A DNA stretch of 64,000 nt from the sequence record PX104378.1; one strand, given 5' to 3'. The stretch is from a phage. Numbering within the stretch: position 1 is the stretch's first letter; the number at the start of each line of letters is the position of its first letter. Position numbers and translations under genes: made by a program. Positions 1,859-64,000 of the stretch are shown here, piece after piece. Under the pieces are notes generated by a model. That model did no database searches, was not told where the DNA came from, and saw only the letters and a program-made list of their open reading frames with translations.

Positions 1859-3853
1859 ATGACTCTATTATCACCGGGTTTCGAAACGAAAGAAACTACT
1901 CTCTCCACTACCATTGTGCAATCTGCGACTGGTCGCGCGGCGCTGGTAGGTAAATTCCAATGGGGTCCAGCTTTCCAGATTATTCAAGTAACTAATGAAG
2001 TTGAGTTAGTTAATAAATTTGGTCAGCCGGATAATAACACCGCAGACTATTTCATGAGCGGGGCTAACTTCCTCCAGTACGGTAATGATCTGCGTGTTGT
2101 TCGTGTATTGAATAAAGAAAAAGCAAAAAACGCAACTACCCTAGCTGGCAACGTAGAGTTTGAAATCACAAACGAAGGTTCAAACTATAAGGTTGGCGAT
2201 ACAATTAAAGTAAAATACAAAAATTCTGAAATTGAAACTGGCGGAAAGATTACAAAAATTTCGTCGGAAGGTAAGATCAAAGGTATTTTTATTCCAACTG
2301 GTAAACTGATTGCACATGCAAAAACAATCGGGGCATATCCAAAACTGGAAGGATACACCGTAGAAATCATTTCTGATAGCGGTAACTCAGGTGCATCGAT
2401 CACTGTATCTGGAATTGTAGTCGACTCCGGTCTTCTGTTAACTGACATGGAAACTTCCCGCGCCAATATAACGAATCAAACTTTCTTGACTAAACTCAAG
2501 AAGTATGATATGCCAGCTGTAAGCGCGATCTATGCTGGTGAGATTGGCAACTCGCTGGAAGTTGAAATTCTGTCGCGTAGTGCGTTTAAGAACACAGCAC
2601 CGGATCTGACCATGTATCCTTATGGTGGCGAGCGCACCGCAGCACGCAACCTGATTCCATATGCACCGCAGAATGATAATCAATATGCGTTCATTGTTCG
2701 TCGCGATGGTGTTGTGGTAGAATCCTATGTATTGTCCACTCTGAAAGGAGATAAAGACGTCTACGGCAATTCTATCTATATGGACGACTTCTTTTCTCGT
2801 GGTGCTAGCCAGTACATCTATGCAACCGCTCAGGGGTGGGTAGATGGCTTCAGTGGCATTATTTCTCTTGCTGGCGGTGTTTCTGCCAACGAAGCAACCG
2901 CTGGTGTTGGTGCTGACCCGTTTGTTAGTGCGATGATGCAAGGCTGGGATCTGTTTGCTGAACGTGAATCTATTCATGTAAACCTTCTGATTGCTGGTGC
3001 ATGTGCTGGTGAAGGTGATGCATTCTCTACCGTACAGAAACATGCTGTTTCTATCGGTGATGAGCGTCAGGATTGCTTAGTAATGGTTTCTCCGCCGCGT
3101 AGCACTGTTGTTAATATTCCGGTGACTACTGCAATTGATAACCTGATTGCATGGCGCGAAGGTTCGGGAAACTATAATGAAAACAACATGAACATTAATA
3201 CCACTTACGCGGTTATTGATGGTAACTACAAGTATCAGTATGACAAATATAACGATGTAAACCGTTGGGTTCCGTTGGCTGCTGATATTGCTGGCTTGTG
3301 TGCTCGTACTGATGCTGTATCCCAGCCGTGGATGAGTCCGGCAGGTTATAACCGTGGTCAGATCATGAACGTGGTTAAACTGGCTATCGAGCCTCGCAAG
3401 GCACACCGTGATCGTCTGTATCAGGCCGCAATTAACCCGGTAATCGGTGCTGGTGGTGAAGGGTTTATCCTGATGGGTGATAAAACCGCTACGACTGTTC
3501 CTAGCCCGTTTGACCGCATTAACGTTCGTCGTCTGTTTAACATGCTGAAAAAGAATATCGGCGATTCAAGCAAATACAAACTGTTTGAAAACAATGATAA
3601 CTTTACTCGCGCTTCCTTCCGTATGGAGGTTTCGCAATATCTCAGCACGATTCGCTCTCTGGGTGGCATTTATGACTTCCGAGTACAATGCGACACCACG
3701 AACAACACGCCGGATGTAATTGATCGTAACGAATTTGTTGCTAGTATGTTCATCAAACCAGCAAAATCGATCAACTATATCATGCTCAATTTCACTGCTG
3801 TTGCAACTGGTGCTGATTTTGACGAAATTATCGGTCCAGCTAACCAGGCATAA
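1859..3853 (+). CDS. 18: Contractile tail sheath protein (gp18-like)
   Basis: 664 aa vs T4 gp18 659 aa; follows terminase as in T4; ATG with SD; TATAAATA upstream. Confidence 0.92.
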   Translation: MTLLSPGFETKETTLSTTIVQSATGRAALVGKFQWGPAFQIIQVTNEVELVNKFGQPDNNTADYFMSGANFLQYGNDLRVVRVLNKEKAKNATTLAGNVEFEITNEGSNYKVGDTIKVKYKNSEIETGGKITKISSEGKIKGIFIPTGKLIAHAKTIGAYPKLEGYTVEIISDSGNSGASITVSGIVVDSGLLLTDMETSRANITNQTFLTKLKKYDMPAVSAIYAGEIGNSLEVEILSRSAFKNTAPDLTMYPYGGERTAARNLIPYAPQNDNQYAFIVRRDGVVVESYVLSTLKGDKDVYGNSIYMDDFFSRGASQYIYATAQGWVDGFSGIISLAGGVSANEATAGVGADPFVSAMMQGWDLFAERESIHVNLLIAGACAGEGDAFSTVQKHAVSIGDERQDCLVMVSPPRSTVVNIPVTTAIDNLIAWREGSGNYNENNMNINTTYAVIDGNYKYQYDKYNDVNRWVPLAADIAGLCARTDAVSQPWMSPAGYNRGQIMNVVKLAIEPRKAHRDRLYQAAINPVIGAGGEGFILMGDKTATTVPSPFDRINVRRLFNMLKKNIGDSSKYKLFENNDNFTRASFRMEVSQYLSTIRSLGGIYDFRVQCDTTNNTPDVIDRNEFVASMFIKPAKSINYIMLNFTAVATGADFDEIIGPANQA

Positions 3854-13287: not shown

Positions 13288-14529
13288 ATGACTCATATTT
13301 TTACTGAACTGTTGCGGGAATCTACTTCCTCAGTAGCTAACCAGACAGCGCGACCGCAACTATTATCATTAACTCGCGCGGTAAACAACCTGATTTTCTC
13401 TGATCTGGTAGCAATCCAGCCAACGGATCAACCAGTATCTGCATTGTACGGCCTACGTTATCTTAATCATGATGGTCAGATGACTTTCCGAACTGCTGCA
13501 ACCTACGGTGGCGCGGTTGGTGATCGCACAGAGATCGAAGAGTTTTCAAAAGAAAAATCTTATGAAGAAGGCGCACTGTTCAAATCAGGCGATGTTGTAT
13601 ACGAAGTTGTGACCGCTGGTACAGTCGGTGAAGATGCCGCAACTCCAGAAGCTGCGATCTTTAAAGGCGTAATGACAAACAAAATTCGTTTCTATAGCGA
13701 TTGTGCATCGGTAGAATACTTTGAAGATAAAAACACCGAAATTGCGTCTACCTCTATGCAGTTTGACAAGTGGCAAGTTAATGTAGGTTCTCGTAAACTG
13801 AAAACCTCTTTCACCACTGAATTAATGCAGGATCTTGAAGCAAGCCAAATCAACTCTGAAAACTCTGTAATTGATCTTCTGGCTACTGTCGCTTCCGAAG
13901 AGATCAACAAAGATATTATACAGAAGTTGATCACTGTATCATCTCGCTATAAAATTAAAGGGATCACCCCTGATGGCGTACTTTCTCTCGTTAGCGTTCA
14001 GGATGCACCAAAACAAGCTCGCGAACTTTACCGCTATGCTTGCGAAATGAGCAATCAAATGTTGCGGACTTCCTCCTTTGCTGGCACATACGTTTTGGCG
14101 TCTTCTCGCGTGGTTGGCCTCCTGCAATCCACCGGATGGATGGAAGAAACCGACAACGCTCTAAGCGAAGGTCGTCTACGTTGCGGTCTGGAAGTGTATG
14201 CAGACACTGTAACACCTTTCGATTATATGCTCGTTGGTTGTAAGCACATGATCGGTGATATGGAGAGTGTAGGTTCTCTGTTCTACTCCCCATACACAGA
14301 AGCCGATGGTGCTGGCGCGTATAAGAGCGTAATTGACCCTAATAGTTTCCAACATCATGTGGCTATTATGAATCGTTATTCACTCTCTGTCAACCCATAC
14401 ACATCAAAAGTTGATCAGGAAGCACACCAGATCATCAAGGGTGACGATTGGGGTAAAATGGCTGGACGTTCAGAAATGTCCTACATTTTAGGAATCGAAC
14501 TGCCACCGCTTGAGATTGACAACGCTTAA
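13288..14529 (+). CDS. 24: Capsid vertex protein (gp24-like)
   Basis: Start trimmed to ATG (MTHIF) downstream of terminator and TATAAATA; N-terminus colinear with T4 gp24 as recalled (ELLRESTxx ... IQPT.QPV). Confidence 0.92.
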   Translation: MTHIFTELLRESTSSVANQTARPQLLSLTRAVNNLIFSDLVAIQPTDQPVSALYGLRYLNHDGQMTFRTAATYGGAVGDRTEIEEFSKEKSYEEGALFKSGDVVYEVVTAGTVGEDAATPEAAIFKGVMTNKIRFYSDCASVEYFEDKNTEIASTSMQFDKWQVNVGSRKLKTSFTTELMQDLEASQINSENSVIDLLATVASEEINKDIIQKLITVSSRYKIKGITPDGVLSLVSVQDAPKQARELYRYACEMSNQMLRTSSFAGTYVLASSRVVGLLQSTGWMEETDNALSEGRLRCGLEVYADTVTPFDYMLVGCKHMIGDMESVGSLFYSPYTEADGAGAYKSVIDPNSFQHHVAIMNRYSLSVNPYTSKVDQEAHQIIKGDDWGKMAGRSEMSYILGIELPPLEIDNA

Positions 14530-15117
14530 CTAAATATCTAACCAAGACAAGTCAGATCCGCCCAAGATTTTTTCGACGGCGGATCTATTTTCTTGATGAT
14601 ATAAGTTAAAACATGGTATCCCATGTCTACGGGCAACATAAACAGCAATTCGAGTTCCTCCAGAAACAATCCCATTAACTTCTTTCGCCCAAAATAACAC
14701 ACAATCTACAGGATCATCAAGTGTCTCACCTAAGACTTGAGCAACATTTCTAGAAAACAGATTTTGCATGTATAACGGTATAGAACGAGGATTATCATAA
14801 ACGTGTTCTAATTCATCCATCGCCAGATCTTTTTGTTCTAAGGTTTGCCATGCGATCACATCATGACCGTTATGCTTGTGGTCATAAAACTTCCAATTTG
14901 GAATGAAGATTTTTCTATAATCTGGATCGTAATACTTCATGAAAGCATTGTCCATACCGTAAGCCCCTCCAGAATGCGCTACAACGCGATTTTCTGACAA
15001 TACCCTCCCAATGGTACTAGCCATTATCAAAATGTCGCTAGGCGCTTTTCTAGAGCCTATTAAAGCACATCTACGAAGTGGTTTTACTCCAAATAGATCT
15101 TGTAACTGGTCAAACAT
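14530..15117 (-). CDS. Rossmann-fold DprA/Smf/LOG-like (SLOG superfamily-like) protein
   Basis: 195 aa; GSRKAPS ... VVAHSGGAYGMDNAF resembles the DprA/SLOG nucleotide-binding motif; family assignment from motif only. Confidence 0.55.
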   Translation of the reverse strand: MFDQLQDLFGVKPLRRCALIGSRKAPSDILIMASTIGRVLSENRVVAHSGGAYGMDNAFMKYYDPDYRKIFIPNWKFYDHKHNGHDVIAWQTLEQKDLAMDELEHVYDNPRSIPLYMQNLFSRNVAQVLGETLDDPVDCVLFWAKEVNGIVSGGTRIAVYVARRHGIPCFNLYHQENRSAVEKILGGSDLSWLDI

Positions 15118-15500
15118 AATATTTCCTCCATAGAAAGCAATATCATACTACAAGTTAATAACAAATACAAGTATCCGCGTAGCGGAAGCGAGCACAGCGA
15201 GCAATAAAACACTTCCAGTAATTGATTAATAAATGTTCGAAACAAATTTTTATTATTCTATAAGATAAGTCTTCGTTTTGATCATAATTTAATCATACAT
15301 GTAAAAACTACACAAAAGGATATCGCTTCGCGAACTCCTACGGAGTATAACATTTGTGTTACAATATGTATTGATTAATAATTAATCAAAGATACATTTT
15401 CTATGTTCTAAAGATCTTTCTTCGTTTTGATCATAATTTAATCAAACAGTATTAATATTGTGCACATGTAAACTAAAATTATGTCAATAATAGATACGAA

Positions 15501-15528
15501 AAAGCCGCCCCAAAGGACGGCTAATGTT
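15501..15528 (-). terminator. Intrinsic terminator after 15531..15968
   Basis: Minus-strand hairpin GCCGTCC-TTTG-GGGCGGC followed by T-run. Confidence 0.6.
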
Positions 15529-15530
15529 AA

Positions 15531-15968
15531 TTATTTGTTGATAACGATCTGATTTCGGCGAATGGTAACATTACTCTTAGGGATGATCAGATCATCCGGC
15601 ACTACGTTAGTTTTGTATGGCTGGAAGCGAACAAGCATCTGATTGCGTTTAGATCCTTCCTTAATCTTGATTTCCATCTGGATATTGTTGCCTACGTGAG
15701 CAACCGCAATTTCACCTTTATTCTCATAGACCCACTTGCTGGTAACGTCGCCAGCGAAAGCCTTAATAACTTGCAATGCTTCGTCGTATGCGGTAGAGCT
15801 GTGAACGTTCAGAAGACCAGCCGTCGCCAGACGTGAGCAAGTGATCGCCGGAGATTGCCAAACATCAACATTAATTTGCTCAATCAGAGTAACACCGCCC
15901 TGATCAACTGCTTTGAATGCTTCGAACATTGCTTTTTTCATTGCTACGTGGTTTTTACGGAATTTCAT
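15531..15968 (-). CDS. Hypothetical protein
   Basis: 145 aa ORF; ATG with SD AGGTGA; intrinsic terminator downstream. Confidence 0.6.
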   Translation of the reverse strand: MKFRKNHVAMKKAMFEAFKAVDQGGVTLIEQINVDVWQSPAITCSRLATAGLLNVHSSTAYDEALQVIKAFAGDVTSKWVYENKGEIAVAHVGNNIQMEIKIKEGSKRNQMLVRFQPYKTNVVPDDLIIPKSNVTIRRNQIVINK

Positions 15969-16014: not shown

Positions 16015-16290
16015 TTAGGACATTGCCCGTTTGAATGCGTCCATTATAACAGTGTTATTTGGCTTGTCAACACGTTTTTGAACTTTATTTTTAAATTTTT
16101 TGTTGATGTGGTGTTTACGATAAACAACCTTTTCACGGTTGGCGTAAGCCTCTCGTGCATCTTTTACCATCAACCATGCCTTAGCCGCATCTTGTCCGCT
16201 GATCCCGCCAATCTTTTTAGCAATATCAACAAAATTAAGACCGTGGTCTTCGCGTAGCATGTAAACCATTAACGCTGTTTTCTTGTCCAT
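16015..16290 (-). CDS. Hypothetical basic protein, possible helix-turn-helix
   Basis: Start trimmed to ATG (MDKKTAL); its ATG overlaps the stop of the upstream 65-aa gene by 1 nt. Confidence 0.5.
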   Translation of the reverse strand: MDKKTALMVYMLREDHGLNFVDIAKKIGGISGQDAAKAWLMVKDAREAYANREKVVYRKHHINKKFKNKVQKRVDKPNNTVIMDAFKRAMS

Positions 16291-51954: not shown

Positions 51955-51969
51955 TAATTCACCTCACTA

Positions 51970-52137
51970 TCACTTTTTAACACAAAAGAACTTAGTATTT
52001 CTGTTTATTTCGTTATCCTGTTGCAATTCCTGCACGGCTTCAAAACAACTTTGATGTGATGAAAACTCCACGCTGGTAACAGTTCCTTTATTATATAAGC
52101 CTACGCTAACGGAAAGCAATAACCATATTGTGGCCAT
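51970..52137 (-). CDS. Small protein (55 aa), tandem paralog; not in ORF table
   Basis: MATIWLLLSVSVGLYNKGTVTSVEFSSHQSCFEAVQELQQDNEINRNTKFFCVKK; start overlaps stop of upstream paralog. Confidence 0.5.
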   Translation of the reverse strand: MATIWLLLSVSVGLYNKGTVTSVEFSSHQSCFEAVQELQQDNEINRNTKFFCVKK

Positions 52138-52310
52138 TAGTTCACCTTCTGCTTTTCAACACAGTACAGATTCATAAAGCGTTTATTGTCTTCGCGGATA
52201 ATCTCGCGAGCTTTAACGCAATCCTGCTTTGTTGCAAATTCAATGCTTGACATATTTCCGTAATTATACATTGAATTGCTGATTGCAATCAATAACCATA
52301 CAGTAGCCAT
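52137..52310 (-). CDS. Small protein (57 aa), tandem paralog; not in ORF table
   Basis: MATVWLLIAISNSMYNYGNMSSIEFATKQDCVKAREIIREDNKRFMNLYCVEKQKVN; hydrophobic N-terminus. Confidence 0.5.
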   Translation of the reverse strand: MATVWLLIAISNSMYNYGNMSSIEFATKQDCVKAREIIREDNKRFMNLYCVEKQKVN

Positions 52311-62494: not shown

Positions 62495-64000
62495 ATGGCA
62501 GATTTTTCTCAACATTTCAAGGCCACATTTGGCTTTGACGCTGGTAATGAAAAGGTCGTCAATGTAGCATTGGCTGATAAGAATGTCAACACCGATGCGG
62601 TCAACGTTGAATTTTTCAATTACCATAATGGTATTACTCAGTATGACACAACTCGCGGTTATGATCAATACGGAACTACAATCTATCAAAACCGTCCGTA
62701 TTATGCAAAAGAAGATATCACAAAGCCAGCAGGTGATTTTGACCCGACTAAATGGCAAGCACTGCGCACCGATCCACGTTGGGATTATATTGCAGCAACT
62801 TCCGGTGATACTCCTTTAAAGTCTGGTGATTATATCGCAGCAGATGGTCAATTTGCAAACTTGACTTTCTCCATGCCAAACAAACCAGCAGAGGGAGACA
62901 CTATAACAGTAAAAGATATCGGTGGCAAGTGTGGTGTTAATGAATTATCGTTCTTGAGTTCAGGTCATGAGTTTTATCATAACGGTAATGTGTATAACCG
63001 CAAATGGTATTGCACTACCCCGTATGCAATGAACTATTTCATCTTTGTTCGTAATCGTTGGCATGTTTATCAGACAGGAACAGAGCCACGCGGTGTGTAC
63101 GCACAGCCAGCGATTGATGCTATTCAAATGCAGAATGGTGATCAGGTATTTCGTCGTAGTTCGTTGGGTAATATTACCTTAGTGCTTCCTAAGTTTGCCA
63201 ACAATGGCGACATGATCCAGACCACAGACCTTGACGGGTTAACCGCAACCAACCACGTTACGGTTAAAGTTCATGAGCACGCAGAAGAACAATCAATTGG
63301 CACGTTCGGATTAAAAGAGATTATCGGTAAGCGTAGCGGTCATGGTGTATTCATCTTTGATAAGCCTGAAAACTTATGGCGTGTGTGGGATGGTGATCAG
63401 TCTGTTCGTCTTAAACCGATCATCGATGACACTCGCTTGCAACCTAATAGTTATGTTGCTGTATTTGGTGATCATGATGTTACTCTGACGCTACCGACCA
63501 ATGTCGAGCCGGGTGATCGTATTCAAGTTTCTATGCAGTATATGCACGGAAACCAGAATTGCCGTATTATCACCGCCGCAGAGGATACAAAAATCCTTAT
63601 GCAGAAAAATATGGTTCAGTTTCCTAAGCGTAGCGAGTACCCATTCAACGGGACCGAGACATGGAAGGAAGTGTCTGAATTGTCGTTCAATGCGGCTAGT
63701 GATTATGTACCTTATCTGGAGTTCTCTTATTCAGAAGGTGATGATGGTAAAAAACACTGGTTGGTAGCACATGCTCACCCGATTGTAGAACGAGTAGATC
63801 CGACTCGTAAAGCGCGTGTTGGTGTAATTGCACTGGCTACCCAGACTGAAACGAATAAAAACCATGAAGAGAATCCTAGCGACGAAGTTGCAGTAACACC
63901 AAAAATGCTGGCTAATAAAACCGCCAACGAAACTCGACGCGGTATTGCTCGCATTGCGACTCAGGAGGAAACGCATCAAGATACTGGTTCCAGCTTCCTG
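62495..64000 (+). CDS. 34: Long tail fiber proximal subunit gp34 (5' partial, runs off window end)
   Basis: Not in ORF table because no stop in window; SD AAGGAG then ATG; translation MADFSQHFKATFGFDAGNEKVVNVALADKNVNTDAVNVEF... colinear with T4 gp34 N-terminus as recalled, ending TETRRGIARIATQEE; TATAAATA upstream. Confidence 0.9.
   Translation, partial: MADFSQHFKATFGFDAGNEKVVNVALADKNVNTDAVNVEFFNYHNGITQYDTTRGYDQYGTTIYQNRPYYAKEDITKPAGDFDPTKWQALRTDPRWDYIAATSGDTPLKSGDYIAADGQFANLTFSMPNKPAEGDTITVKDIGGKCGVNELSFLSSGHEFYHNGNVYNRKWYCTTPYAMNYFIFVRNRWHVYQTGTEPRGVYAQPAIDAIQMQNGDQVFRRSSLGNITLVLPKFANNGDMIQTTDLDGLTATNHVTVKVHEHAEEQSIGTFGLKEIIGKRSGHGVFIFDKPENLWRVWDGDQSVRLKPIIDDTRLQPNSYVAVFGDHDVTLTLPTNVEPGDRIQVSMQYMHGNQNCRIITAAEDTKILMQKNMVQFPKRSEYPFNGTETWKEVSELSFNAASDYVPYLEFSYSEGDDGKKHWLVAHAHPIVERVDPTRKARVGVIALATQTETNKNHEENPSDEVAVTPKMLANKTANETRRGIARIATQEETHQDTGSSFL

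What the first reader, a model, noticed from the sequence alone, without database searches (positions are those of the whole stretch)
15118..15530. 413-bp AT-rich noncoding region with a 25-bp direct repeat
Between two minus-strand genes there is an unusually long noncoding interval for this compact genome. It contains two copies of CTTCGTTTTGATCATAATTTAATCA about 150 bp apart (near 15271 and 15420) plus short GC-rich islands. Candidates are iterons of a replication origin, binding sites for a regulator, or a small RNA locus. No tRNA-like cloverleaf was evident.
Basis: seen in the sequence. Interest (0 to 1): 0.4.

Follow-up and report, generated by a model that had tools for sequence, protein, structure and literature searches.

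The report
Tandem promoter cassettes with Fis-type sites
The repeat is real: it is the conserved core of a small promoter-like cassette, present twice in tandem in an RB49-like T4-type coliphage, whose central palindromes fit the binding consensus of the host protein Fis. This points to an undescribed but testable host-dependent control region rather than a tRNA or a classic iteron origin.

Summary
Window 15118-15530 is a 413-bp gene-free spacer (29.5% GC). It holds an exact 26-bp repeat at 15270-15295 and 15419-15444, inside a 149-bp tandem duplication.

The window is a Krischvirus (RB49-like). The spacer lies between a DprA-like gene (RB49 ORF164c) and a 145-aa gene (ORF165c).

Read in gene direction (minus strand), each unit has:
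- a 15-bp palindrome that exactly fits the E. coli Fis consensus GNNYAWWWWWTRNNC;
- a 17-19 nt spacer and a -10-like hexamer (TAGAAT / TAGAAC), with no -35;
- a second Fis-type site;
- two GC-rich mini-hairpins with three-base loops.

This architecture recurs in at least eight diverged lineages, with two or three units each. Together they hold 30 exact Fis-consensus matches in 3.6 kb, against about 0.06 expected per region. The hairpins show compensatory changes.

RB49 has two further dispersed copies, and some E. coli prophages carry a homologue.

Most likely this is a stacked, host-factor-controlled promoter cassette, a variant of the "PeSL" cassettes already described in RB49-type phages, sitting upstream of the DprA-like gene. 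Small-RNA genes and R-loop replication origins are not excluded. No binding or transcription was measured.

The parts
15503..15522 (-). Intrinsic terminator of the upstream 145-aa gene (ORF165c-like): GC stem-loop followed by a T run.
   Evidence: Scan. Annotated as a terminator in GEC-3S, G2248 and G2494 and predicted for RB49 by Nolan 2006.
15321..15469 (-). Unit A of the 149-bp tandem duplication.
   Evidence: Homologous units are present in 8 lineages.
15172..15320 (-). Unit B of the tandem duplication.
15420..15444 (.). 25-bp exact repeat, copy in unit A. On the minus strand it comprises Fis-type site 1 plus the AAAACGAAG spacer.
   Evidence: CAAAACGAAGA is invariant in four paralogues/homologues.
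15271..15295 (.). 25-bp exact repeat, copy in unit B.
15429..15443 (.). Fis-consensus palindrome, site 1 of unit A (GATTAAATTATGATC on the minus strand).
   Evidence: Exact match to GNNYAWWWWWTRNNC. Among 17 aligned Krischvirus sequences, one variable position is at an N position (15430) and one violates a W (15434, 2 genomes).
15373..15387 (.). Fis-consensus palindrome, site 2 of unit A (GATTAATAATTAATC).
   Evidence: The flanking 19-bp perfect palindrome is not conserved, but the consensus is.
15280..15294 (.). Fis-consensus palindrome, site 1 of unit B.
15224..15238 (.). Fis-consensus palindrome, site 2 of unit B (GAACATTTATTAATC on the minus strand).
15449..15463 (.). One-mismatch Fis-type site ('site 0'), 20 bp upstream of site 1 of unit A.
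   Evidence: It lies in a stretch that is hypervariable among Krischvirus genomes, so it is weak in this lineage.
15405..15410 (-). -10-like hexamer TAGAAC of unit A, 18 nt after site 1, with no -35 hexamer.
   Evidence: Read from the sequence. The stretch 15405-15428 is invariant in 16 genomes.
15255..15260 (-). -10-like hexamer TAGAAT of unit B, 19 nt after site 1.
   Evidence: The same hexamer is present in RB49 copies 3 and 4 and in the E. coli prophage homologue.
15427..15455 (+). Opposite-strand promoter-like element TTGATC-17-TATTAA. It is degenerate here but is consensus TTGATN-16/17-TATAAT in relatives.
15278..15307 (+). Opposite-strand promoter-like element TTGATC-18-TAAAAA (degenerate).
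15334..15346 (.). Mini-hairpin a (minus strand ACTCC-GTA-GGAGT).
   Evidence: Invariant in 16 Krischvirus genomes. The stem sequence differs between lineages.
15323..15333 (.). Mini-hairpin b (minus strand TCGC-GAA-GCGA).
   Evidence: Compensatory U-A to C-G change in 3 of 7 lineages.
15188..15202 (.). Element c: GCGAGC-ACA-GCGAGC on the plus strand. It forms a hairpin with a tandem G.A mismatch on the plus strand.
   Evidence: L038 has a perfect hairpin here (GCGAGC-TTTT-GCTCGC) and L016 shows a compensatory change.
15174..15186 (.). Mini-hairpin d (TCCGC-GTA-GCGGA on the plus strand), directly upstream of the promoter of the DprA-like gene.
   Evidence: Stem variants CCGC/GCGG, CGGC/GCCG and CCCGC/GCGGG occur across lineages.
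15142..15170 (-). Promoter-like TTGTAT-17-TATGAT for the DprA-like gene, followed by a GGAGG ribosome-binding site (15125-15129) and the ATG (15115-15117).
   Evidence: TTGnnT-17-TATrAT is conserved in WIN, L005 and L013. L016 has TTGATT-17-TATAGT at the same place. L019 has only a poor -35.

Best explanation
The spacer holds two stacked copies of a roughly 110-150-bp regulatory cassette. A third, ordinary promoter for the DprA-like gene (RB49 ORF164c) follows them.

Each cassette is built around a promoter without a -35 hexamer. On the gene (minus) strand it has a -10-like TAGAAT or TAGAAC. Where the -35 should be there is a 15-bp palindrome centred near -37 to -40. A second such palindrome lies about 56 bp downstream, and relatives have more at 20-bp steps upstream. 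Two GC-rich mini-hairpins with three-base loops close each cassette.

The palindromes fit the high-affinity consensus of the host nucleoid protein Fis. The proposed mechanism is as follows. Fis, which is abundant only in fast-growing cells, binds these sites, bends the DNA, and controls RNA polymerase at the cassette promoters. It would either substitute for the missing -35 contact or occlude the promoter. The hairpins would attenuate read-through toward the DprA-like gene.

Shown: the sequence architecture, its conservation, the site enrichment, the selective constraint, the dispersed paralogues and the hairpin covariation.

Inferred: that Fis is the binding protein, that the promoters fire, and whether the effect is activation or repression.
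For: 1. Exact repeat within a 149-bp tandem unit.

2. The same two- or three-unit architecture sits between the same two genes in lineages whose flanking proteins are only 57-92% identical, while the spacer is otherwise barely alignable.

3. GNNYAWWWWWTRNNC is quoted as the E. coli Fis high-affinity sequence (PMC3302801; PMC2816674).
- 4 of the 7 matches in the 64-kb window lie in these 413 bp.
- Relatives have 1-6 matches per spacer, against about 0.06 in dinucleotide shuffles.
- There are 30 matches in 3,585 bp for this geometry, against 0-2 for any altered spacing. Of 51 YAWWWWWTR cores, 30 carry G at -7 and C at +7.

4. The sites lie in register at -40, -20, 0 and +53 to +65.

5. Among 17 aligned Krischvirus sequences, 5 of the 6 variable positions inside the four sites fall at the consensus N positions. 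The perfect 19-bp palindrome itself is not conserved.

6. The core 15118-15443 has 6.7% variable sites, against 17-21% at third codon positions. The -10/spacer segments and hairpins a and b are invariant or nearly so.

7. Two more cassette copies exist in RB49, upstream of and co-oriented with gene 3 and a tail-fibre gene. A homologue sits in a divergent intergenic region of an E. coli prophage. All keep CAAAACGAAGA...ATCTTTAGAAT.

8. The hairpins fold in every lineage with different stem sequences.

9. This fits the published 'promoter-early stem-loop' (PeSL) concept for RB49 and phi1 (PMC2839356).
Against: - No binding or transcript data exist for this region.
- The consensus scan finds no sigma-70 promoter on the gene strand in the window, because the -35 is missing.
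- Nolan et al. predicted no early, middle or late promoter here in RB49.
- In AT-rich DNA, -10-like hexamers are cheap.
- The upstream 'site 0' pattern can also be explained by an opposite-strand TATAAT promoter.
- A phage-encoded dimeric protein with Fis-like specificity would give the same sequence signals.
- The sites in different lineages are homologous, so the counts are not independent.
- The E. coli prophage homologue has weaker Fis matches.
- A Fis site centred at -37 to -40 could equally repress.
Confidence: 0.5

Rival explanations
1. Small-RNA genes. Each cassette is an autonomous transcription unit. Its product would be a 60-95-nt non-coding RNA on the gene strand. That RNA would start about 7 nt after TAGAAT, run through the AT-rich segment and the site-2 palindrome, and end at hairpins a and b plus a U-rich stretch. 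The tandem and dispersed copies would be paralogous sRNA genes.
For: - The transcribed part is strongly conserved within Krischvirus: 15388-15428 and hairpins a and b are invariant.
- Hairpins a and b show compensatory changes.
- Hairpin b is followed by U-rich sequence in the window, in RB49 copy 3 and in L038.
- Tandem-plus-dispersed paralogues are typical of sRNA families.
- A G-U wobble variant is tolerated on this strand in L009 and L015.
Against: - No Rfam family reaches its gathering score: only E >= 1 matches far below threshold in the window, and one sub-threshold STnc100 match (32.7 vs 47 bits) over a terminator in L016.
- U tracts after hairpin b are absent in most lineages.
- Stems are only 3-7 bp.
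- Both strands fold equally well.
- The region between the -10 and the hairpins is poorly conserved between lineages apart from the protein-site-like palindrome.
- The short ATG-started reading frame in the repeat is not conserved and has no ribosome-binding site.
Confidence: 0.2
2. Replication origin of the T4 type. A promoter lacking a -35 (activator-dependent, as at T4 oriF and oriG) would fire into an AT-rich unwinding element. It would form a persistent R-loop that primes leading-strand synthesis. Fis-type sites would bend or organise the DNA. The three cassette loci in the genome would be the origins of a phage that lacks MotA.
For: - This is the most AT-rich 400 bp of the roughly 164-kb genome.
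- The cassette occurs at only three loci.
- It lies 0.6 kb from a strand-switch point where GC skew flips, a property noted for T4 oriE, oriF and oriG. oriE uses an early promoter and has repeats (PMC3016281).
- RB49 has no motA and no middle promoters (PMC1524935).
- The E. coli prophage homologue sits next to a run of iteron-like CCTACAC repeats.
Against: - There is no replication data.
- No initiator gene is adjacent.
- Only two copies of the 25-mer exist, 149 bp apart, which is unlike iterons.
- The skew flip is explained by gene orientation alone.
- Copies 3 and 4 sit directly upstream of genes and co-oriented with them, as promoters would.
- Closeness to the T4 origin positions rests on memory of the T4 map and is only to within about 5 kb.
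Confidence: 0.12
3. A selfish or neutral dispersed repeat. This would be a MITE-like element or a leftover of PeSL-mediated shuffling. It would mark the place where a gene such as rnlB was lost and would have no function of its own.
For: - Morganella phage vB_Mm5 has rnlB at this position and no long spacer.
- L014 has two extra genes inserted here.
- Copy number varies between 2 and 3.
- The cassette is dispersed and is shared with an unrelated prophage.
Against: - Purifying selection is well below the synonymous rate.
- Specific consensus positions are kept while the rest diverges.
- There is no detectable similarity to Rnl2.
- No terminal inverted repeats or target-site duplications were seen.
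Confidence: 0.1
4. A long imperfect hairpin or cruciform. Site 1 plus its flank would pair with site 2 plus its flank, and the structure would act as a DNA or RNA element in its own right.
For: - 31-nt arms are 71% complementary in unit B.
- L016 B has CAAACGTCAT...ATGACGTTTG and L019 has a 14-bp stem.
- The fold z-score is about -3.3 on both strands.
Against: - Two copies of the same palindromic site are complementary to each other by construction.
- The flanking inverted repeat is lineage-specific.
- Most Krischvirus genomes break the perfect palindrome at 15371 and 15386 while keeping the protein-site consensus.
Confidence: 0.03

Closest known systems
PeSL (promoter-early stem-loop) mobile regulatory cassettes of RB49 and phi1 (Arbiol et al. 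2010, PMC2839356; Comeau et al. 2014, PMC4122927)
   Same: The same phage group. Both are short intergenic cassettes repeated in the genome, combining an AT-rich stretch, a host-type promoter and a GC-rich stem-loop. The promoter of the DprA-like gene, with hairpin d just upstream, fits the description.
   Different: The unit promoters lack the consensus -35 that defines PeSLs. The stems are 4-6 bp hairpins with three-base loops, not polyG/polyC stems. The units carry palindromic Fis-type sites not described for PeSLs. The units stand in tandem without intervening ORFs. The paper does not mention this locus.
Fis-regulated E. coli promoters with multiple phased Fis sites (rrnB P1, tyrT, proP P2, fis P). 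The positions are recalled from the literature and were not checked here.
   Same: Several 15-bp sites fit GNNYAWWWWWTRNNC, spaced about 20 bp apart or about 56 bp apart. One overlaps the -35 position, as at proP P2 (about -41) or fis P (about -42, with a second site downstream of the start).
   Different: The context is a virulent T4-type phage genome. Binding has not been tested. The promoters are only predicted. I know of no report of Fis control in T4-like phages, and the literature search found none.
T4 oriF/oriG (MotA-dependent promoter plus a downstream unwinding element) and oriE (early promoter plus 12-nt repeats), as reviewed in PMC3016281
   Same: A promoter that depends on something other than a -35 hexamer, followed by very AT-rich DNA. 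Repeats are present, the locus is near a strand-switch point, and there are several loci per genome.
   Different: There is no MotA box, no MotA gene in RB49, no evidence of an R-loop or of replication initiation, and no sequence similarity was looked for or shown.
Tandem paralogous sRNA genes (for example OmrA/OmrB and PrrF1/PrrF2, recalled from the literature)
   Same: Roughly 150-bp tandem units, each with its own promoter-like element and terminal hairpins, and with a perfectly conserved 25-nt block.
   Different: In the predicted gene-strand transcript the conserved block lies upstream of the start, not inside the RNA. No family match was found and no clear terminators are present.

Membership tests
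PeSL cassette | Intergenic motif repeated at several places in the genome | tested here: met
   Four copies in an RB49-type genome: two here, one at RB49 ~62.8 kb and one at ~150.0 kb.
PeSL cassette | Sigma-70 consensus promoter with both -35 and -10 (PMC2839356) | tested here: not met
   The unit promoters have TAGAAT/TAGAAC but no -35. Only the last promoter (TTGTAT-17-TATGAT) comes close.
PeSL cassette | Adjacent stable stem-loop acting as terminator or attenuator | tested here: inconclusive
   GC-rich hairpins a-d are present and conserved. They are short, and termination was not tested.
PeSL cassette | Mediates insertion or deletion of ORFs by recombination | tested here: inconclusive
   L014 carries two extra genes at this junction and copy number varies between 2 and 3. 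Recombination itself was not shown.
Fis binding-site array | 15-bp sites matching GNNYAWWWWWTRNNC | tested here: met
   Four exact matches in 413 bp and 30 in 3.6 kb of homologous spacers. Altered geometries give 0-2.
Fis binding-site array | Selection acts on the consensus positions, not on the N positions | tested here: met
   5 of 6 variable positions within the sites are at N positions among 17 aligned Krischvirus sequences.
Fis binding-site array | Fis protein binds and changes transcription | not testable with these tools
   Needs gel shifts or footprinting, and reporters in a fis-deleted host.
Iteron-type replication origin | Three or more regularly spaced direct repeats of about 17-22 bp | tested here: not met
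   There are only two copies of the 25-mer, 149 bp apart. The 20-bp-spaced elements are palindromes, and in this window the array has at most two members.
Iteron-type replication origin | Adjacent initiator (Rep) gene | tested here: not met
   The neighbours are a DprA-like protein (weak PF02481 match), a 145-aa protein with no family, and a DUF2774 protein.
Iteron-type replication origin | AT-rich unwinding region | tested here: met
   Lowest-GC 400 bp of the genome.
T4-type R-loop origin | Origin activity or an R-loop at the site | not testable with these tools
   Needs marker-frequency analysis or DRIP.
Known RNA families or tRNA | Covariance-model or cloverleaf match | tested here: not met
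   No Rfam match reaches its gathering score: the window gave only E >= 1 matches far below threshold, and eight related loci gave one sub-threshold STnc100 match in L016. ARAGORN found 0 genes.

The most novel reading that the evidence does not exclude
The cassette would be the replication-origin module of MotA-less T4-type phages. A Fis-dependent promoter without a -35 would fire into the most AT-rich DNA of the genome and form a priming R-loop. The three cassette loci (RB49 ~62.8, ~97.6 and ~150.0 kb) would be the functional counterparts of T4 oriE, oriF and oriG. This would tie phage replication initiation to the host growth state through Fis.
Probability: 0.1. Interest if true: 0.8.

Novelty: new variant of a known kind. 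Interest (0 to 1): 0.45.

Why it matters
RB49-type phages are common therapeutic coliphages. They lack the MotA/middle-promoter system of T4, so how they time gene expression after the early phase, and how they start replication, remains open.

A conserved, dispersed cassette built around high-affinity Fis-type sites would be the first indication that a virulent T4-type phage reads the host growth state through a nucleoid protein. It gives three defined loci where this can be tested with simple experiments: gel shifts, reporters in a fis-deleted host, 5'-end mapping and marker-frequency sequencing.

If the sites turn out to bind a phage protein instead, they define its operator.

Tried and rejected
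- **tRNA or tmRNA:** ARAGORN found none.
- **Known RNA families:** none reached threshold in the window or in eight related loci. The only hit was a sub-threshold STnc100 match over a terminator in L016.
- **Conserved mini-ORF:** the repeat starts a short frame (ATG ATC AAA ACG AAG...). The ATG is absent in L005, L013 B, L015 and L020, and there is no ribosome-binding site.
- **Pseudogene remnant of rnlB:** tblastn with the Morganella phage Rnl2 gave only chance hits.
- **General promoter motif of the genome:** the 25-mer is not found elsewhere in the window. Nolan 2006 predicted no promoter here.
- **Canonical PeSL:** the consensus -35 is missing.
- **Long hairpin:** explained by two copies of one palindrome. 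The perfect palindrome is not conserved.
- **GC skew as an origin signal:** the flip at about 14 kb coincides with the switch in gene orientation.
- **Single-unit 'ancestral' form in L015:** this was a contig-end artefact. L038, of the same lineage, has three units.
- **Uniqueness of the locus:** I first thought the Fis cluster was unique in the genome. I then found two dispersed cassette copies.
- **More relatives from viral and metagenome contig scans:** these gave few new lineages. Most relatives came from protein homologues and their contigs.

Full report
**What the window is.** The 1.5 kb around the finding is 95-99% identical to 59 phage records of the genus Krischvirus (RB49, phi1, JSE, GEC-3S and others). 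The finding lies between two minus-strand genes.
- Gene 14530-15117 is RB49 ORF164c, named 'DprA-like' in RefSeq. It has only a weak, below-threshold PF02481 match.
- Gene 15531-15968 is ORF165c, 145 aa, with no family.
- Gene 24 (head vertex) ends at 14529 on the plus strand, so the locus is 0.6 kb from a convergent strand switch.

**The observation.** It is correct in every detail.
- The 25-mer is present exactly twice, at 15271 and 15420, and nowhere else in the window with up to 3 mismatches. None of 100 shuffles gave a match.
- The identity is 26 bp long and sits inside a 79-nt, 73%-identical repeat with a 149-bp period.
- The spacer is 413 bp and 29.5% GC, against 40.7% for the window.
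- It is the second-largest ORF-free gap in the window.
- It is the only 400-bp stretch below 31% GC in the window plus the remaining RB49 sequence.
- No tRNA and no Rfam family is present.

**Anatomy, read in gene direction (minus strand).**
- The terminator of ORF165c comes first (15522-15503, then a T run). Several records and Nolan et al. 2006 also annotate it.
- Two units follow. Each contains, in order:
  - a 15-bp palindrome, GATTAAATTATGATC ('site 1');
  - the spacer AAAACGAAGA...ATCTT;
  - a -10-like hexamer (TAGAAC at 15410-15405 in unit A, TAGAAT at 15260-15255 in unit B);
  - about 20 AT-rich bases;
  - a second palindrome ('site 2': GATTAATTATTAATC in unit A, GAACATTTATTAATC in unit B);
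  - two GC-rich mini-hairpins with three-base loops. These are a and b after unit A (15346-15323), and c and d after unit B (15202-15174).
- Directly after hairpin d comes TTGTAT-17-TATGAT, then GGAGG and the ATG of ORF164c.

**Relatives.** Homologues of the two flanking proteins and their contigs gave at least eight lineages. Their flanking proteins are 57-92% identical to the window's.
- In all of them the two genes are separated by 330-580 bp of AT-rich DNA with the same plan. There are two units in L005, L013, L016/L017, L019 and L020. L037 starts inside the spacer and shows one complete unit plus the end of another. L038 has three units.
- L015 seemed to have one unit, but this was a contig-end artefact.
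- Outside the conserved blocks the spacers are hardly alignable, so the shared blocks reflect constraint.
- Among 16 Krischvirus genomes the core 15118-15443 has 6.7% variable sites, against 17-21% at third codon positions of the flanking genes.
- The -10/spacer segments, the stretch 15388-15404 and hairpins a and b are invariant or nearly so.
- By contrast, 15444-15502 is hypervariable at 37%.

**The palindromes fit the Fis consensus.** GNNYAWWWWWTRNNC is quoted as the high-affinity sequence of E. coli Fis (PMC3302801; the degenerate form is given in PMC2816674).
- The window has 7 exact matches, and 4 of them are the four palindromes of this spacer.
- The spacers of the relatives have 1-6 exact matches each, against about 0.06 in dinucleotide shuffles.
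- Over eight lineages there are 30 matches in 3,585 bp for this geometry. Any version with a longer or shorter centre or arm gives 0-2.
- Of 51 YAWWWWWTR cores, 30 are flanked by G at -7 and C at +7 in DNA that is about 28% GC.
- The sites sit in register at -40, -20, 0 and +53 to +65 relative to site 1.
- Among 17 aligned Krischvirus sequences, 5 of the 6 variable positions inside the four sites are at the consensus N positions. If substitutions fell at random, my estimate of the chance of this is about 0.006.
- The perfect 19-bp palindrome at 15371-15389 is broken in most genomes while the 15-bp consensus is kept.
- This pattern argues for a protein site rather than a nucleic-acid hairpin.
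- The sites in different lineages are homologous, so the counts are not independent. A phage protein with similar specificity would leave the same trace.

**Promoters.** The consensus scan finds nothing on the gene strand in the window, because there is no -35. Site 1 occupies that position, centred near -37 to -40 relative to a start about 7 nt after the -10-like hexamer.
- The -10-like hexamer is kept at the same distance in all lineages: TATAAT in L015, L016 A and L019; TATAGT or TATAAG in others.
- On the opposite strand, the right half of site 1 is a -35 (TTGATN), followed after 16-17 nt by TATAAT. This is consensus quality in L005, L013 B, L015, L016 A and L020.
- In the window that opposite-strand element is degenerate (TATTAA, TAAAAA) and lies in the hypervariable stretch.
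- Each unit therefore looks like a back-to-back promoter pair sharing a central operator. In this lineage only the gene-direction half appears to be maintained.

**The cassette is dispersed.**
- RB49 has a third copy between two tail-fibre genes (~150.0 kb) and a fourth between ORF130 and gene 3 (~62.8 kb).
- Both are co-oriented with the downstream gene. Both keep one exact and one one-mismatch Fis-type site, TAGAAT, and hairpins a and b.
- At copy 4 the opposite-strand promoter faces the lone plus-strand ORF130.
- 53 of 5,426 complete E. coli genomes carry a 75-bp homologue (76-81% identity) in a 1.3-kb gene-free, divergent region of a prophage. It sits beside a run of similar GC-rich mini-hairpins and iteron-like CCTACAC repeats.
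- CAAAACGAAGA and ATCTT are invariant in all four aligned copies. TAGAAT is kept in three of them, and window unit A has TAGAAC.

**Hairpins.** Hairpins a, b and d fold in every lineage with different stem sequences.
- Hairpin b stems are TCGC/GCGA, TTGC/GCAA and ATGC/GCAT.
- Hairpin d stems are CCGC/GCGG, CGGC/GCCG and CCCGC/GCGGG.
- Element c is a perfect hairpin in L038 and a hairpin with a tandem mismatch elsewhere.
- All changes are Watson-Crick, so they do not identify the strand. U tracts after the hairpins are inconsistent.

**Interpretation.** The best-supported reading is a stacked regulatory cassette, a variant of the PeSL cassettes described for RB49 and phi1 (PMC2839356). Its promoters lack a -35 and carry Fis-type operators. 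It stands twice in tandem in front of ORF164c.
- That Fis is the binding protein, and whether it activates or represses, are inferences. Activation would resemble proP P2 and repression would resemble fis P; both examples are recalled from the literature.
- Two other readings remain possible: the cassette's real product is a short RNA, or the promoter-plus-AT-rich module is a T4-type R-loop origin. The origin reading fits the extreme AT content, the few loci per genome, the nearby strand switch and the absence of MotA in RB49. There is no replication evidence, and the skew flip is explained by gene orientation.
- A neutral remnant is unlikely given the constraint and the lack of similarity to rnlB, which occupies this position in Morganella phage vB_Mm5.

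**Novelty and score.** The terminator is annotated in several records, and PeSLs are published. Neither PeSL paper's text as searched nor Nolan et al. describes this locus, its tandem units, the dispersed copies or the Fis-type sites. A literature search found no report of Fis control in T4-like phages. I rate it a new variant of a known kind, of moderate interest (0.45). The most novel reading not excluded is Fis-linked origins, with probability about 0.1.

Noticed in passing
RB49 NC_005066 ~149,990-150,140 (L034 4985-5150) and ~62,770-62,900 (L033 12770-12900); both outside the window: Two further copies of the cassette. One lies between tail-fibre genes p249 and p250, followed by a TATAAATA late promoter. 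The other lies between ORF130 and gene 3.
   Followed up: partly
L039 2926-4229 (E. coli C325 chromosome NZ_CP124819, prophage inserted in hicB): A 1.3-kb gene-free divergent region holds a 75-bp homologue of the cassette, at least 8 CCTACAC(T) iteron-like repeats (3496-3620), five yTwGAAAGGkATT repeats, and a run of GC-rich mini-hairpins with three-base loops. It looks like a control or origin region of an uncharacterised temperate phage.
   Followed up: partly
L005 2265-2440: This relative has an extra ~180-nt leader between the promoter and the start of the DprA-like gene, with repeated GTTTTAG/CTAAAAT motifs that look structured. No Rfam match was found.
   Followed up: no
L014 3496-4310: Two extra genes are inserted between the 145-aa gene and its usual terminator: a 197-aa protein with weak DUF723/CapR matches and a 73-aa protein. 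This is an example of gene shuffling at this junction.
   Followed up: no
L035 1456-3088 (Morganella phage vB_Mm5): Here RNA ligase 2 (rnlB) sits between the 145-aa-like gene and the DprA-like gene, and the genes overlap. Krischvirus has the AT-rich spacer at that position and no rnlB in the window.
   Followed up: yes
window 16043-16141 (minus strand): A perfect TTGACA-16-TATAAT promoter with an extended TG follows a small hairpin (16141-16125), upstream of the 145-aa gene. It is a textbook PeSL-type early promoter.
   Followed up: no
window 15444-15502: This stretch is hypervariable among 16 Krischvirus genomes (37% variable sites). One genome has a replaced block at 15478-15493. The rest of the spacer is strongly conserved.
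   Followed up: partly
window 14530-15117 and its homologues in other records: The DprA-like CDS is annotated with different lengths in different records: 717 nt in UPWr_E1, 426 nt in ELT3 and 588 nt elsewhere. Some records place small hypothetical CDSs inside the spacer.
   Followed up: no
window 62820-63500 and 51955-52309: These are other long ORF-free gaps in the window (681 bp and 355 bp at a 60-aa cut-off). They were not examined.
   Followed up: no
L016 2887-2993: A sub-threshold Rfam match to STnc100 (32.7 bits against a gathering score of 47) lies over the 3' end and terminator of the 151-aa gene. It is probably driven by the terminator.
   Followed up: no
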